Assembly (NCBI GenBank): GCA_963828165.1
Contig: CAWHDR010000001.1
Span: forward strand, 288,001 to 352,000
Direction of reading: 5' to 3'
Length of the DNA stretch: 64,000 nt
Origin: an uncultured Chloroflexia bacterium
GTDB lineage: Bacteria; Chloroflexota; Limnocylindria; Limnocylindrales; CSP1-4
Positions 36,407 to 41,103 of the stretch are shown piece after piece. Under the pieces are notes generated by a model. It did not search any database, had not been told where the DNA came from, and saw only the letters and a program-made list of their open reading frames with translations. How positions within the stretch are numbered: position 1 is the first letter of the stretch; every line of letters starts with the position of its first letter. Both the position numbers and the translations under genes were made by a program.

Positions 36407-36469
36407 CCGACGCGTGGCCGAGGCGGGGCTCGACACGCGAATGTCACGAGTCCGGTGCACCATGACGCC

Positions 36470-38050
36470 GTGAGCACCTCCGCATCAGCCCTCAGCTCGG
36501 TCGTTCCCGCGCGATCGTCGACGTCGCGGGTCGCCGCCGCCGCCGCCGGCGTGGCCGCCGCGGCCGTCGCCCTCGGAGCCTCGGAGTTGATCGCTGCCGT
36601 GCTGCCGGGCGCGACCTCCCTTGTCGCGGCGATCGGCCAGGTCGTCATCGACCTGCAACCGGCGGGCGCCAAGGACCTGGTCGTGGCGCTCTTCGGGACC
36701 AACGACAAGGTGGCCCTCGAGATCGTCGTGGTCCTCGCGTCGCTGGCGTTCGGTGCTGGCCTCGGCATCGTCGCCGCGCGTCGCTTCGTCGTCGCGGCTG
36801 CGGGCTTTGTCGCATTCGGCGTGCTCGGCTTCGCGGCCGCCCTCGGTAACCCGCTGGCCAACGGGGCCTCCGTTGCGGCCCAGGCCACGGTGGCGGTCGG
36901 GCTCGGCATCCAGACCCTGTCGTGGCTGCTCGCACGGGCACCGCTGGCGGTCGCGGATGCGGTAGGGGTACGCGCATCGTCGGACCCGGCACGCCGCTCA
37001 TTCCTGTTGCGGACCGGCGCCGTCAGCCTGTCCGCCCTCGTGGTGGGTCTCGGCGGCCGCAGCCTGCTCGCTGGTTCGCGGACGGCGCCGATCACGGTGG
37101 GGGAGCTGCCGGTCCCCTCGGAGACCGTGCCGCCCATCGCCGCCGGGGCCGACCTTGCGCCGGCGACGCCCGGCCTGACCCCGATCGTCGTTCCGAATCA
37201 GGATTTCTATCGCATCGACACTGCCCTCCTCGTCCCGAGCGTGGACATCGCGACCTGGACGCTGCGCATCCACGGCCTCGTCGAGCGTGAGACGACGCTG
37301 ACCTGGGACGAGCTGCTGGCCCTGCCCATGTTCGAGCAGTACGTGACGATCGCCTGCGTCAGCAACGAGGTCGGGGGCGGGCTGGTCGGGAACGCGAAAT
37401 GGACGGGGGTCCGGTTGCGCGACGTGCTCGAGATCGCCGGAGTCTCGTCGTCGGCGGACCAGCTGGTGGGCCGGTCGGTGGACGGATTCACGGCGGGCAT
37501 GCCGACCGCCTGGGTCATGGACCCGGCCCGCGAGCCCATGATCGCCGTCCAGATGAACGATGAGCCCCTGCCGCCGGCGCACGGCTACCCCGCGCGGCTC
37601 ATCGTCCCCGGCCTGTACGGCTACGTATCGGCGACGAAGTGGCTCGCCGAGCTCGAGCTGACCACCCTCGAGGGGTTCGACGGGTACTGGGTCCCGCTCG
37701 GCTGGTCCAAGCTCGCGCCGATCCTGACCCAGTCGCGGATCGACACGCCGCGCGGCGGATCGGTCGCGGCAGGCCGTGTGCCGATCGCCGGAATCGCCTG
37801 GGCACCGGATCGCGGCGTCAGCAAGGTCGAGGTCGCGATCGACGGGGAGTGGCACGACGCGGAGCTCTCGGCTCCGATCTCGGACACGACCTGGGTCCAG
37901 TGGGTCGTGGCCTGGGACGCGACGCCGGGTCAGCACACGGTCAGTGTCCGCGCGACCGATGGGACCGGCGCGGTCCAGGAAGAGCGGTCGTCGCGGCCCG
38001 CGCCGGACGGCGCTCGTGGCTGGCACACGGTCTCGATCTCGGTCTCCTGA
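36470..38050 (+). CDS. Membrane molybdopterin-dependent oxidoreductase (sulfite oxidase family)
   Basis: Multi-TM N-terminus, RRSFL, FYRID, IACVSN, HGYPARL, ATKWL. Confidence 0.9.
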   Translation: MSTSASALSSVVPARSSTSRVAAAAAGVAAAAVALGASELIAAVLPGATSLVAAIGQVVIDLQPAGAKDLVVALFGTNDKVALEIVVVLASLAFGAGLGIVAARRFVVAAAGFVAFGVLGFAAALGNPLANGASVAAQATVAVGLGIQTLSWLLARAPLAVADAVGVRASSDPARRSFLLRTGAVSLSALVVGLGGRSLLAGSRTAPITVGELPVPSETVPPIAAGADLAPATPGLTPIVVPNQDFYRIDTALLVPSVDIATWTLRIHGLVERETTLTWDELLALPMFEQYVTIACVSNEVGGGLVGNAKWTGVRLRDVLEIAGVSSSADQLVGRSVDGFTAGMPTAWVMDPAREPMIAVQMNDEPLPPAHGYPARLIVPGLYGYVSATKWLAELELTTLEGFDGYWVPLGWSKLAPILTQSRIDTPRGGSVAAGRVPIAGIAWAPDRGVSKVEVAIDGEWHDAELSAPISDTTWVQWVVAWDATPGQHTVSVRATDGTGAVQEERSSRPAPDGARGWHTVSISVS

Positions 38051-38102
38051 CCGGAGCGAAGCCCCCAGCGGCCACCGGCGAGAATCGGTATAAAGTCCAG
38101 AC

Positions 38103-38684
38103 ATGCCGCGCCGCCGCTACATCTTCGACCCGCCCGAGCGCTTCGTGGCCGGCACGATCGGTGACCCCGGCAATCGGACGTTCTTCCTGCAGGCGCGCGA
38201 CGGTGGCCGGGTGGTCTCGGTCGCGCTCGAGAAGGTCCAGGTCGCGGTCCTCGCGGAGCGACTCGACGATCTGCTGGGCGAGCTCGATCGCCGTGGCGTG
38301 CCCCACGGCGTCCCGGACGAGGTCCTCGCGGATGCGGCCATCGGTCTCGACGATGACGTCTCGGCCCTGGACGAGCCGCTCGTGGAGGCGTTCCGTGCCG
38401 GTTCCCTGACGCTCGGCTGGGACCCGGACGCCGAGCGCGTGCTCCTGGAGGCGCGTGCCCAGGACGAGGAGGGCGAGGCCATCGATCCCGATGACGACGA
38501 CGACGAGGACGAGGACGGGCCGGACCTGCTGCGGGTGCGCCTGACCGCGGCAGCGGCCCGCTCATTCGTGGCCCGGGCCGCCCGGGTCGTGGCGGGCGGC
38601 CGCCCGCCCTGCCCGCTGTGTGGAGCTCCGCTCGATCCGCGCGGTCACATCTGCCCGCGCCGGAACGGCCACTACGTCAACTAG
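38103..38684 (+). CDS. DUF3090 family protein
   Basis: FVAGTIGDPGNRTFFLQAR, GRPPCPLCG...GHICPRRNG. Confidence 0.9.
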   Translation: MPRRRYIFDPPERFVAGTIGDPGNRTFFLQARDGGRVVSVALEKVQVAVLAERLDDLLGELDRRGVPHGVPDEVLADAAIGLDDDVSALDEPLVEAFRAGSLTLGWDPDAERVLLEARAQDEEGEAIDPDDDDDEDEDGPDLLRVRLTAAAARSFVARAARVVAGGRPPCPLCGAPLDPRGHICPRRNGHYVN

Positions 38685-38738
38685 CGGCTTCGTCCGCGCC
38701 CTGCTCGCAAGCCGGTTCCTCGGCGTCGTACACTGGCG

Positions 38739-38886
38739 ACGGCGCGTTCCCGCGCCCGACTGCCAGACCGAGCCCCCACGCGGCGCGGCGAAGCGGCAGT
38801 AAAGGGGATCCGGATCCTCGGGAGAACCGGTCGACCATCCGACCGGCCGACGACGTGGCGGTGTGGGCGCGTGCGTCGACGGCCGT
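38739..38886 (+). ncRNA. Putative structured cis-regulatory leader RNA
   Basis: -10-like TACACT at 38729-38734 followed by several nested stems (see findings). Confidence 0.55.
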
Positions 38887-38902
38887 GACGGAGAACTGAC
38901 CG

Positions 38903-40258
38903 ATGACCACCGACAAGGCCTTCAAGCGGGTCGTGCGTGCGCGCATGGCCAAGACCGGCGAGCGATACGCCGCCGCCCGACGCACGTTGGTCGAGGGCGC
39001 CACAGACGGACGACACGCGCAGGCGACGGCCGACGCCGCCACCGCATCTGGCTATCGGCTGCGCGGCGGCCTGCACCCGGAGACGGCCACGCTGGCCAAC
39101 GTCCTGGCGAATCAGGATGTCGTCTCGGGCGTGACCGGCGAGCCCTTGACCGAGGCCGCGATCCTCGGCATCGGCGGCGGCCTGGGCGCCGGCTACATCC
39201 TCTGGGAGTTCAAGAGCCACGGCGGGCCGATCCTCACCCTCGGATTCCGGAACCAGTGGCAATACCCGTCGATCCCCGGCTGGACGGGCAAGACGCTCGA
39301 CCGGCTCGGCATCGAGCCCGACCTGCACGAGACCGGCGGGACGAAGCGTGCTCGCGAGGCGCTCGATGCGCGCCTGCACGCCGGCGTCCCTGTCATCGCC
39401 TCTGTCGATCTCCAGTCGGTCGGGACCTGGGGCCAGCCCCCCGCGATGTCGGGGGTCTTCGGTCTCGTCGTCGTCGTCTTCGGACGTGACGCGGATGGCT
39501 CGTACCTCGTTGACGACCGTGGCCAGAGCCCGTTCCGGGTACCACCCGCGACGATGGCGGCAGCACGCGGGCGGATCGGCTCGTTCAAGCACCGGATCGT
39601 CGGGCTGCGAACGACGCCCGGACCGATCCCGGCCGAACGGCTTCGCGCAGCGCTGCGCGCGGGGCTCGAGGACCAGGTGGATCACCTGCGATCCCCATCC
39701 GACTCGTTCTCCCTTCCGGCCTGGCGCAAGTGGGCCCGGCTGATGACCGACGCTCGGAACGCGAAGGCGTGGCCGCGGGTCTTCGCCGACGGCCGGGGCC
39801 TGTTCGGCTCGCTGTCGGCCCTTCACGAGAGCGTTGACGGCGGAGTCGGGCCGTGGGGTGGGCACTTGCGAGAGCTGTATGCCGCATCGCTTGACGAGGC
39901 GGCCATCGCGCTCGACAACCCCGCGCTCGGCGACGCGGCGCGGGCATGGCGGGGCGTCGCCGACCAGTGGGAGGAGCTGGCCGACGCGGCGGTACCACCC
40001 GATCTCGATGGCGCTGCCGATGCGGTCGAGGCCGTAGAGGCGCTTCATGAGGCGGTCATGGCCGGCGAACCGGGTCGTTCGCGTGTGAGCGCCGCCGCGG
40101 AGACCGTGTCGGCGATCCGGGATCGCTACGCCGACGCCTTCCCCCTTCCACCGGACCGCGTCCCGGCGATCCTCGAGGATCTCGGCGAGCGGCTCGGCGC
40201 GATCTACGGGGCAGAGGTCGACGCGCTCGACACGACCGCTCGGGCCATCGGCAGGTAA
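38903..40258 (+). CDS. BtrH N-terminal/DUF4872-like protein with Arg-rich N-terminal extension
   Basis: LHPETATLANVL, LGIGGGLG, YLVDDRG; N-terminus KAFKRVVRARMAKTGERYAAARR; GGAG RBS. Confidence 0.78.
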   Translation: MTTDKAFKRVVRARMAKTGERYAAARRTLVEGATDGRHAQATADAATASGYRLRGGLHPETATLANVLANQDVVSGVTGEPLTEAAILGIGGGLGAGYILWEFKSHGGPILTLGFRNQWQYPSIPGWTGKTLDRLGIEPDLHETGGTKRAREALDARLHAGVPVIASVDLQSVGTWGQPPAMSGVFGLVVVVFGRDADGSYLVDDRGQSPFRVPPATMAAARGRIGSFKHRIVGLRTTPGPIPAERLRAALRAGLEDQVDHLRSPSDSFSLPAWRKWARLMTDARNAKAWPRVFADGRGLFGSLSALHESVDGGVGPWGGHLRELYAASLDEAAIALDNPALGDAARAWRGVADQWEELADAAVPPDLDGAADAVEAVEALHEAVMAGEPGRSRVSAAAETVSAIRDRYADAFPLPPDRVPAILEDLGERLGAIYGAEVDALDTTARAIGR

Positions 40259-40374
40259 AGGGCGCCTCCGCCGCGCGATCGGCATCGATGGGTAGACTCC
40301 CTGCATGACCCGGTCGCGCGGCGCAACCACGCACAACGCCCCCGACGTCGGCTAGTCCGGTCGAGCCGATCAGC

Positions 40375-41103
40375 GTGCCGGATCGCGACGCGACCCTGGA
40401 GGTCCTGCGCGATGGCGCCATCTCGATCGTCGGGCGCGTCATCGGCTCGAGCAACAACGCGCTCTTCGTGACGGTCGCCTGCCCGGAACCCGGGCCGCTC
40501 GAGCCGCTCGCCGCCATCTACAAGCCCACGGCGGGCGAGCGCCCGCTCGACGACTTTCCGGATGGGACCCTCACACGCCGAGAGGTCGCCGCGTGGCAGG
40601 TCTCGGAGTCGAGCGGCTGGGACATCGTCCCGCCGACGGTGCTGCGTGACGGGCCGTTCGGCGAGGGCATGGTCCAGGCGTACGTGGAGCCCGATCCCAC
40701 GGTCGACGTCGTGGAGCTGATCACGTCCGCGGACCCGCGCCTGCGGCGGATGGCCGTGCTCGATGCCGCGATCAACAATACCGATCGCAAGGGCGGTCAC
40801 ATCCTGCCGGTGGACGGCGGCCGGCACATCCACGGCGTGGATCACGGCGTGTGCTTCTCGCCCGTGCCGAAGCTGCGGACGGTGCTGTGGGCGTGGCGCG
40901 GCCAGGAACTGGCGCCCGATGAGATCGATGGTCTCCGGCGCGTCCGAGACGACCTCGATGGGCAGCTCGGGGTGACGCTACGAGCGTTGCTGGGACGGAC
41001 CGACCTACGGGCCACGGTCCGGCGCGTGGATTCGTTACTGAAGAGCGGGCGCTTTCCGCTCCCCTCGCCGACGTGGCCGGCGATCCCCTGGCCGCCGTTC
41101 TAG
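40375..41103 (+). CDS. SCO1664 family protein (PI3/4-kinase-like fold)
   Basis: GSSN, IYKP..GERPLDDFPDGTL, NNTDRKGGH, DHGVCF, IPWPPF; true start is probably ATG 40305 with a +1 error. Confidence 0.9.
   Translation: MPDRDATLEVLRDGAISIVGRVIGSSNNALFVTVACPEPGPLEPLAAIYKPTAGERPLDDFPDGTLTRREVAAWQVSESSGWDIVPPTVLRDGPFGEGMVQAYVEPDPTVDVVELITSADPRLRRMAVLDAAINNTDRKGGHILPVDGGRHIHGVDHGVCFSPVPKLRTVLWAWRGQELAPDEIDGLRRVRDDLDGQLGVTLRALLGRTDLRATVRRVDSLLKSGRFPLPSPTWPAIPWPPF

What the first reader, a model, noticed from the sequence alone, without database searches (positions are those of the whole stretch)
38729..38905. Nested, possibly switchable 150-nt leader RNA upstream of the BtrH-like gene
Seen: after TACACT (38729) the sequence can form nested stems: ACGGC 38739/GCCGT 38882; CGCGCCC 38751/GGGCGCG 38865; ACTGCCA 38759/TGGCGGT 38856; CCGAG 38768/CTCGG 38817; CCCC 38773/GGGG 38804; and hairpin CCGGTCG 38827/CGACCGG 38840. 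ACTGCC also pairs perfectly with GGCAGT 38795, a mutually exclusive alternative. The outer stem closes 4 nt before the GGAG RBS. I cannot assign it to a known riboswitch class. Inference: an undescribed cis-regulatory or protein-binding RNA; my top candidate. High GC favours chance pairing, so covariation is the decisive test.
Basis: partly seen in the sequence, partly recalled or inferred. Interest (0 to 1): 0.82.

Follow-up and report, generated by a model that had tools for sequence, protein, structure and literature searches.

The report
New leader RNA tied to peptide tag
The stretch is a real, strongly conserved folded RNA at the start of a messenger RNA, found in many bacterial phyla and in no RNA catalogue searched, and it always comes with the same short, arginine-rich first 30-35 amino acids of whatever protein follows, which points to a self-contained gene-control module of a kind not described before.

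Summary
It pairs no better than shuffled controls (67.2% vs 65.5%, 98 sequences), and the window folded alone is not beyond chance (z -0.89).

Comparative data show a different fold with strong covariation (92.8% paired vs 72.6% shuffled; 54 of 60 pairs compensatory):
- A 5' domain: P1, P2 enclosing P3, and P4.
- A pseudoknot between the P1 loop and GGGA after P4.
- A 3' hairpin stack (P5-P8) that pairs the Shine-Dalgarno sequence and the bases just before the AUG.
- A 7-bp kissing loop between L3 (CCCACGC) and L8 (GUGUGGG).

No Rfam 15 family matches.

The RNA always precedes genes whose products begin with one ~35-aa helical-hairpin module (MTTxKxFKRRVRARMxKTGExYxxARR) fused to unrelated domains. 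79 of 80 loci chosen by the peptide alone, from at least eight phyla by record title, carry the RNA.

Most likely it is a translational operator bound by that module (autogenous control); binding is inferred, not shown. Interest is high.

The parts
38729..38734 (+). -10 promoter box TACACT (TAnnnT); the transcript is inferred to start about 7 nt downstream, at the foot of P1
   Evidence: In 97 aligned upstreams the first, second and sixth positions are T 88%, A 96% and T 89%, with a weak TTG about 23 nt upstream. Homology between same-genus loci begins here. The start site itself is inferred.
38741..38756 (+). P1 hairpin GGCGC / GCGCC with loop GUUCCC
   Evidence: Helix 1 pairs in 97.1% of cells and 3 of 5 pairs covary.
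38748..38751 (+). 5' strand of pseudoknot PK1 (P1 loop UCCC), pairs with GGGA at 38820-38823
   Evidence: It was not in the covariance model. The 3 core pairs are 98.6% paired and all covary (CG/UA/GC types).
38759..38800 (+). P2 (ACUGCC 38759-64 / GGCAGU 38795-800) enclosing P3 (CCGAGCC 38768-74 / GGCGCGG 38782-88)
   Evidence: P2 has 5 of 6 pairs covarying. P3 has 6 of 6 covarying and is 95.7% paired.
38775..38781 (+). L3 loop CCCACGC, 5' partner of the kissing loop
   Evidence: The kissing loop is 99.2% paired over 98 sequences and 6 of 7 pairs covary. Without any alignment, 94 of 97 leaders have a 7/7 complement between P4 and the AUG, against 137 of 1940 shuffles.
38801..38819 (+). Conserved AAA junction and P4 hairpin GGGGAU / AUCCUC with a variable loop
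   Evidence: AAAGGGG is at least 90% conserved. P4 is 94.5% paired and 4 of 6 pairs covary.
38820..38823 (+). GGGA, 3' strand of PK1
38828..38902 (+). 3' domain: P5 (38828-33/38897-902, abuts the AUG), P6 anti-SD UCCG 38838-41 / SD CGGA 38889-92, P7 38843-56/38873-87, P8 38858-60/38868-70
   Evidence: All pairs of helices 8-15 covary. The 3' strand of P6 overlaps an SD-like tetramer in 91 of 98 leaders, mostly 8-13 nt before the AUG. The single-sequence MFE reproduces this domain.
38861..38867 (+). L8 loop GUGUGGG, 3' partner of the kissing loop
   Evidence: There are 13 different L3/L8 combinations, for example CUCACGC/GCGUGAG, CCCCAGC/GCUGGGG and CCUGCGC/GCGCAGG.
38890..38905 (+). Shine-Dalgarno GGAG (38890-93) and start codon ATG (38903-05)
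   Evidence: Read directly.
38903..39004 (+). Codons 1-34: N-terminal module MTTDKAFKRVVRARMAKTGERYAAARRTLVEGAT, an Arg/Lys-rich helical hairpin
   Evidence: M1 K5 K8 R12 R14 T18 G19 E20 Y22 A25 are invariant. AlphaFold2 gives helix 3-18, a turn and helix 22-33, pLDDT 87.4. Codon-position entropy is 0.60/0.42/1.11 bits. No Pfam or NCBIfam model matches.
38903..40258 (+). Whole gene, 451 aa: module, then linker, then BtrH_N and DUF4872
   Evidence: Homology to same-genus loci ends at the stop codon.

Best explanation
Positions 38741-38902 are the 5' leader of the mRNA for the 451-aa gene. They are one instance of a widespread, uncatalogued structured RNA class.

Shown:
- A compact 5' domain (P1, P2 around P3, P4) locked by a pseudoknot between the P1 loop and GGGA.
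- A 3' hairpin stack whose lower helices pair the Shine-Dalgarno sequence and the six bases before the AUG.
- A 7-bp kissing loop joining L3 of the 5' domain to the apical loop L8 of that hairpin.
- Strict two-way coupling of this RNA to a ~35-aa Arg/Lys-rich helical-hairpin module at the N-terminus of the encoded protein, whatever the rest of the protein is.

Inferred:
- The leader is a translational operator.
- When the kissing loop docks the ribosome-binding-site hairpin onto the 5' domain, ribosome binding is blocked.
- The effector that stabilises this closed state is the N-terminal module itself. It could act in trans, or in cis as the nascent chain emerges on its flexible linker.
- Every gene carrying the cassette would then limit its own expression and be co-regulated with the other copies in the genome.
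For: Structure:
- On 98 sequences, 92.8% of cells pair against 72.6% in shuffles and 38.5-46.2% when partners are slid. 54 of 60 pairs have compensatory changes. On 28 sequences the figures are 95.6% against 80.9%.
- Neither pseudoknot was in the covariance model, yet they are 98.6% and 99.2% paired.
- An alignment-free test finds a kissing-loop partner in 94 of 97 leaders, against 137 of 1940 shuffles and 9 of 97 with L3 reversed.
- Conserved G-U pairs (for example P4 GU in 86 of 98) fix the sense strand.

Ribosome-binding-site occlusion:
- The 3' strand of P6 overlaps an SD-like tetramer in 91 of 98 leaders, and all P5 and P6 pairs covary.

Coupling of RNA and module:
- Protein-first, 79 of 80 loci picked by the peptide pattern alone have the RNA ending at the start codon.
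- RNA-first, 35 of 35 hits and 23 of 24 further hits (one is cut by a contig end) are followed by the module.
- The C-terminal parts differ. Of 80 proteins, AHSA1 is in 28, DUF4287 in 27, BtrH_N in 21, DUF4872 in 16, DUF1835 in 2 and Clp_N in 1; WD40 also occurs.
- The module is under protein-level selection and is a basic helical hairpin.
- It starts at residue 1 in most of the 150 listed proteins, out of 4103 clusters.
- No pathway theme links the genes, which argues for the module, not a metabolite, as the common factor.
Against: - No binding evidence of any kind exists. The module has no detectable relative among RNA-binding families.
- The coupling could be purely evolutionary. Promoter, leader and first 35 codons may be inherited as one block when fusions arise in the linker.
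- The 5' domain has many invariant junction and loop nucleotides, which is typical of small-molecule aptamers.
- P7 and P8 are very GC-rich, so it is unclear how the closed state is ever relieved.
- One module gene lacks the RNA (L112).
- One degenerate 5' domain lacks the module (L154).
Confidence: 0.5

Rival explanations
1. A metabolite- or ion-sensing riboswitch. The 5' domain is an aptamer, and ligand binding sets the kissing loop and so the accessibility of the ribosome-binding site, as in cobalamin riboswitches. The N-terminal module would be functionally related to the ligand.
For: It has a highly conserved, pseudoknotted 5' domain with invariant junction nucleotides. It has a separate, more variable RBS-sequestering platform. 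In another class of the phylum the 3' domain is remodelled while the 5' domain and kissing loop are kept. The phylum range is broad.
Against: No instance was found upstream of a transporter or biosynthetic gene. Every complete instance precedes the peptide module. The downstream domains share no pathway. No Rfam riboswitch model matches.
Confidence: 0.2
2. The coupling is only co-inheritance. The leader is an operator or enhancer for some other trans factor (a separate RNA-binding protein, an sRNA, the 30S subunit as a standby site, or temperature). The module has an unrelated job such as targeting, a degron or nucleic-acid anchoring.
For: Promoter, leader and module form one contiguous block whose homology starts at the -10 box. 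The block sits in different genomic contexts in the same genus, which fits a block that moves and fuses as a unit.
Against: The pairing is kept across at least eight phyla and many C-terminal domains with almost no uncoupled cases (1 of 80). Passive linkage alone would be expected to erode.
Confidence: 0.17
3. The leader is released or retained as a stable RNA that stays bound to the module and serves the protein as a cofactor or scaffold. This would be a ribonucleoprotein like the 5'-UTR-encoded guide or bridge RNAs of IscB and IS110 (recalled). Occlusion of the RBS would be secondary.
For: The structure is complex for a simple operator and is strictly coupled to a basic peptide handle.
Against: Covariation specifically maintains SD and AUG-proximal pairing, which is a cis-regulatory signature. 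No variable 'guide' segment is evident. The partner domains (SRPBCC, BtrH-like, WD40) are not known nucleic-acid enzymes.
Confidence: 0.1
4. Chance pairing in GC-rich intergenic DNA, with no functional RNA.
For: Single-sequence folding is not better than shuffles (z -0.89).
Against: Covariation is massive and conservation spans phyla. In the same genus the leader is more conserved than the coding sequence behind it.
Confidence: 0.01

Closest known systems
Cobalamin riboswitch regulatory kissing loop (L5-L13) (recalled from the literature; not read here)
   Same: A loop of the sensor domain forms a kissing complex with the apical loop of a downstream hairpin that holds the ribosome-binding site, linking sensor state to translation.
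   Different: There is no B12 box or four-way junction, and no match to RF00174 or any Rfam model. The genes are not cobalamin-related. The effector is unknown.
Autogenous ribosomal-protein leaders with pseudoknots (for example L20 and S15 operators) (recalled)
   Same: A pseudoknotted mRNA operator at the RBS of a gene encoding a small, very basic RNA-binding polypeptide, with strict co-occurrence of the RNA and the protein family.
   Different: Here the 'protein family' is a portable 35-aa N-terminal module fused to unrelated domains. No rRNA target or mimicry is known, and binding is not shown.
Rop/Rom protein and the RNA I-RNA II kissing complex of ColE1 (recalled; the one passage read in PMC11323272 was a reference list and did not state it)
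   Same: An alpha-helical hairpin protein that recognises and stabilises a roughly 7-bp loop-loop helix. The module here is a helical hairpin and the RNA has a 7-bp kissing loop.
   Different: Rop is a 63-aa homodimeric four-helix bundle that acts in trans on antisense RNAs. No sequence or fold match was found.
Arginine-rich-motif peptides binding RNA hairpins (lambda N-boxB, Tat-TAR) (recalled)
   Same: A short Arg-rich helix as a self-sufficient RNA-binding unit at a protein's N-terminus.
   Different: Those act on transcription, not on their own mRNA's RBS, and they are not found as a conserved cassette across unrelated bacterial genes.

Membership tests
Any Rfam 15 family | Covariance-model match at or near the gathering score | tested here: not met
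   The window 37500-40500 gave only two minus-strand miRNA-model hits far below gathering (23 vs 60 bits; 16.7 vs 46.7). Ten diverse instances gave 0 hits at E<=1.
Metabolite/ion riboswitch | Conserved structured aptamer in a 5' UTR | tested here: met
   The 5' domain with PK1 is conserved across phyla and covaries.
Metabolite/ion riboswitch | Expression platform controlling the RBS or a terminator | tested here: met
   SD and pre-AUG bases are paired in covarying helices P5 and P6. An SD-like tetramer overlaps P6 in 91 of 98 leaders. No terminator-like site was found in the window region.
Metabolite/ion riboswitch | Association with genes of one pathway, transporter or ligand | tested here: not met
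   Downstream domains are heterogeneous (AHSA1, DUF4287, BtrH_N/DUF4872, WD40, Clp_N, DUF1835). The only shared element is the N-terminal module.
Metabolite/ion riboswitch | Direct, selective ligand binding by the RNA | not testable with these tools
   This needs in-line probing, ITC or SHAPE.
Cobalamin riboswitch | B12-box core (RF00174) in addition to the regulatory kissing loop | tested here: not met
   No Rfam hit. Only the kissing-loop logic is shared.
Autogenous protein-binding leader (r-protein type) | RNA strictly co-occurs with the gene of one RNA-binding polypeptide | tested here: met
   79 of 80 protein-first loci and 35 of 35 plus 23 of 24 RNA-first loci show the pairing. That the module binds RNA is itself unproven.
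Autogenous protein-binding leader (r-protein type) | The encoded protein binds its own leader and represses translation | not testable with these tools
   No RNA-protein modelling or assay is available. The module is a basic helical hairpin.
RNA thermometer | Simple SD-masking hairpin without conserved tertiary structure or sequence | tested here: not met
   Two covarying pseudoknots and about 50 conserved nucleotides. No Rfam thermometer hit.
Integron attC / DNA-level recombination site | Single imperfect inverted repeat located 3' of cassette ORFs, with strand-symmetric pairing | tested here: not met
   The element is multi-helix with pseudoknots, lies 5' of the ORF from a -10 box, and has conserved G-U pairs valid only on the sense strand.

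The most novel reading that the evidence does not exclude
The promoter, leader and first 35 codons form a portable, gene-autonomous expression governor made of an RNA and a peptide. As the nascent N-terminal helical hairpin leaves the ribosome on its flexible Pro/Ala linker, it clamps the kissing-loop junction of its own mRNA in cis and shuts the ribosome-binding site. Each transcript would then be translated only a limited number of times. Evolution has pasted this cassette in front of unrelated domains in at least eight phyla. That would be a new class of co-translational cis-autoregulation, and a ready-made synthetic-biology part.
Probability: 0.22. Interest if true: 0.95.

Novelty: new variant of a known kind. 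Interest (0 to 1): 0.86.

Why it matters
A large, pseudoknotted leader RNA of about 165 nt is missing from Rfam 15 and from the literature I could search. Yet it sits in front of genes whose N-terminal module defines 4103 protein clusters, and it was seen in at least 535 loci of species-representative genomes. It is a substantial new 'orphan' RNA class in Actinomycetota, Chloroflexota, Gemmatimonadota and others.

Its strict pairing with a short N-terminal peptide, not with a pathway, is unlike known riboswitches and r-protein leaders. This suggests a modular RNA-peptide control unit.

It also matters for annotation. Gene callers sometimes read through the leader: in several listed proteins the module starts at residues about 61-131. 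The module also has no Pfam or NCBIfam model. Cultured carriers (Micromonospora, Isoptericola, Planomonospora, Actinopolymorpha, Streptomonospora) make it directly testable.

Tried and rejected
- Single-sequence folding gives no signal on either strand.
- The generic promoter and terminator scan of 38000-39500 found 0 sites. The -10 box emerged only from the comparative alignment.
- His local hairpin CCGGTCG/CGACCGG could be an alternative 'open' state in the BtrH clade (75.3% paired on 28 sequences). It is not kept in the wider set (53-65%), so I do not claim a switch.
- A small ORF in the leader is unlikely. The ORF 38618-38899 starts inside the upstream gene and the upstream sequence is not conserved. 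I did not pursue it.
- A mobile-element or integron reading was rejected (see the membership test). Only 3 loci turned up in viral contigs and 3 plasmid records.
- PADLOC gave no defence link. The one hit was a generic HEAT-ARM model on the WD40 protein.
- Module homology searches gave nothing usable: PDB sequence search (one hit, E 1.7), Foldseek against the PDB (best E 1.6), the ESM Atlas, Pfam (0 of 20 members at E<=10) and NCBIfam.
- The word-indexed search on module residues 1-40 returned only close DUF4287/AHSA1 relatives.
- The module homodimer job returned 'no answer' (score 0.07 against a mark of 0.42). I take it as no evidence either way.
- RNA-library contigs come from one study and four runs. 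Contigs of close relatives join leader and coding sequence (38713-39295 and 38704-39216), and one begins at 38737. These are assembled contigs from libraries that may contain DNA, so I do not use them as evidence of transcription or of a start site.
- Literature searches found nothing on this RNA or module. Searches ran six search terms on the main texts of PMC11109978 and PMC8632094 and found 0 occurrences. The motif lists of those surveys are largely in supplements, which were closed, so a listing there cannot be excluded.
Full report
**Observation.** The region lies between a DUF3090 gene (38103-38684) and a 451-aa BtrH_N/DUF4872 gene (38903-40258), both on the plus strand. On its own the sequence is unremarkable: MFE -83.4 kcal/mol against -79.5 +/- 4.4 for shuffles (z -0.89; 33 of 200 shuffles fold as well), and z 0.0 on the minus strand. 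A permissive Rfam 15 scan returned only two sub-threshold miRNA models on the minus strand.

**Conservation.** A DNA search of 61 related genomes found the leader in 14, ten of them strong matches in the same genus. Aligning those loci showed three things:
- Homology starts abruptly at GTACACT (38728) and ends at the stop codon 40258. The flanks are unrelated in every genome.
- The leader is 93-100% identical, while the coding sequence behind it is mostly 75-95% identical.

The neighbouring DUF3090 gene has orthologues of only 77-84% identity, located elsewhere in five of those genomes. Leader plus gene is therefore a unit that sits in different contexts.

**Building the family.** I built a covariance model from the 10 leaders (R1). 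It found 27 places in 19 of 151 genomes sampled from the family, including a second copy in the window's own genome. A second model built from 28 diverse hits (R2) gave these results:
- 19 of 151 genomes sampled from the class. This tally includes two unpublished genomes, G272 and G291, which I did not use further.
- 4 of 151 genomes sampled from the phylum. Three of these are in another class, where the 5' domain and kissing loop are kept but the 3' domain is longer.

**The fold.** On 98 sequences (A9) the supported structure has 92.8% of cells paired, against 72.6% in shuffles and 38.5-46.2% with slid partners. 54 of 60 pairs have compensatory changes. On 28 sequences the figures are 95.6% against 80.9%. 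In window coordinates the elements are:
- P1: 38741-45 / 38752-56.
- P2: 38759-64 / 38795-800.
- P3: 38768-74 / 38782-88, with loop L3 CCCACGC.
- A conserved AAA junction.
- P4: 38804-09 / 38814-19.
- The 3' stack: P5 38828-33 / 38897-902, P6 38838-41 / 38889-92, P7 and P8, with loop L8 GUGUGGG (38861-67).

The alignments were fitted to the nested helices, which biases those counts. Two tertiary pairings were not in the model and still hold:
- PK1 (P1 loop UCCC 38748-51 with GGGA 38820-23): its 3 core pairs are 98.6% paired and all covary.
- The L3-L8 kissing loop: 99.2% paired, with 6 of 7 pairs covarying.

An alignment-free test agrees. A perfect 7/7 complement of L3 lies between P4 and the start codon in 94 of 97 leaders, in 13 different sequence combinations. 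The same is true of 137 of 1940 shuffled regions and of 9 of 97 leaders when L3 is reversed.

His 'alternative' ACTGCC/GGCAGT is P2. The single-sequence MFE recovers P1 and the 3' domain but mis-pairs P2-P4.

**Regulatory anatomy.** The 3' strand of P6 overlaps an SD-like tetramer in 91 of 98 leaders, mostly 8-13 nt before the AUG. P5 pairs the bases immediately before the AUG. All of these pairs covary. The first six model columns are a conserved -10 box (TAnnnT) with a weak TTG upstream. The RNA therefore runs from the inferred start site at the foot of P1 to the AUG, about 165 nt. No terminator-like site was found in the window region.

**Gene association.** Every complete instance is followed by an ORF beginning MT(T)xKxFKRRVRARMxKTGE(S/R)YxxARR:
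- 35 of 35 hits.
- 23 of 24 further hits; the other is cut by a contig end.
- 6 of 7 hits in five cultured actinobacterial genomes. The seventh is a degenerate 5' domain fused directly to a BtrH-like ORF.

After a Pro/Ala-rich linker the proteins differ: BtrH_N/DUF4872, DUF4287 with AHSA1 (SRPBCC), WD40, Clp_N and DUF1835.

Searching by the peptide alone gives the same picture. A profile of the 35-aa module hits 4103 protein clusters at E<=0.001, and the match starts at residue 1 in most of the 150 listed. The best 80 carry record titles from Chloroflexota, many Actinomycetota, Gemmatimonadota, Trueperaceae, Acidobacteriota, Planctomycetota, Myxococcales and Dormiibacterota. 79 of those 80 carry the RNA ending exactly at the start codon. 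The exception is L112.

The module is under protein-level selection: codon-position entropy is 0.60, 0.42 and 1.11 bits. It is predicted as helix 3-18, a turn and helix 22-33, with pLDDT 87. It has no Pfam, NCBIfam or PDB relative.

**Interpretation.**
- Shown: a real, sense-strand, pseudoknotted leader that occludes its own RBS and is strictly coupled to an Arg-rich N-terminal helical hairpin.
- Inferred: the module is the effector, stabilising the kissing-loop-docked closed state (autogenous control). This could happen in cis as the nascent chain emerges.

I put this at about 0.5. It explains why the common denominator of the regulated genes is a peptide, not a pathway, and why the peptide is N-terminal. 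No binding data exist. The rivals are a small-molecule riboswitch (0.2), co-inheritance with another trans factor (0.17) and a stable ribonucleoprotein cofactor (0.1).

**Comparison with known systems.** The architecture works like a cobalamin riboswitch's L5-L13 switch or a pseudoknotted r-protein operator. The pairing of a helical hairpin with a 7-bp kissing loop recalls Rop and RNA I/II. All three comparisons are recalled, not read here. It is a member of none of them: there is no Rfam match in the window or in ten diverse instances. Literature searches and term searches in two survey papers found nothing. Supplementary tables could not be read.

**Verdict.** The finding is real and important, although the proposed fold was wrong. 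It is a new, widespread structured leader RNA forming a cassette with an N-terminal peptide module.

Noticed in passing
Own genome, contig C5:129064-129233 (locus L037/L044): A second copy of the leader (108 bits with R2) lies upstream of a 244-aa DUF4287 + AHSA1/SRPBCC protein with the same N-terminal module.
   Followed up: yes
window 38728-40258 compared with L002-L010: The leader-plus-gene unit lies in unrelated genomic contexts in same-genus genomes. It is more similar (leader 93-100%, coding sequence about 75-95%) than the neighbouring DUF3090 gene's orthologues (77-84%), which lie elsewhere. This suggests relocation or exchange within the genus.
   Followed up: partly
L003, L006, L008, L071, L073, L076 (BtrH-type genes): In several MAG loci the ORF after the module ends early (195-329 aa instead of about 450). 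These are either frameshifted pseudogenes or assembly errors.
   Followed up: no
L154 (a Planomonospora corallina genome), around 1501-1600: A degenerate 5' domain (AAAG changed to GGAG) is followed directly by a BtrH_N-like reading frame, with no 3' domain and no N-terminal module. It looks like a deletion remnant.
   Followed up: partly
L112:100-460 (Nitriliruptoraceae MAG): This is the only one of 80 module-bearing genes with no recognisable leader RNA upstream.
   Followed up: partly
Protein clusters (for example P0252, P0271, P0297, P0353): In some database proteins the module starts at residues about 61-131 instead of 1. This is about what results if a gene caller extends the ORF upstream through the ~170-nt leader, so the leader is probably hidden inside mis-annotated starts.
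   Followed up: no
window 38464-38545: The acidic Asp/Glu run in the DUF3090 gene attracted many unrelated RNA-library contigs (depth spike of 40-166 against a background of about 5). This is a low-complexity artefact, not expression.
   Followed up: no
window 38825-38905, minus strand, and the same place in relatives: Weak reverse-strand hits of the covariance models (E 0.001-0.006) and of an Rfam miRNA model fall on the 3' domain. They occur because the long P7 hairpin is nearly palindromic. They are artefacts.
   Followed up: yes
window 36455-38050 and 40375-41103: Upstream is a 531-aa molybdopterin oxidoreductase with a Big_7 domain. Downstream is a 242-aa ORF with no Pfam match.
   Followed up: no
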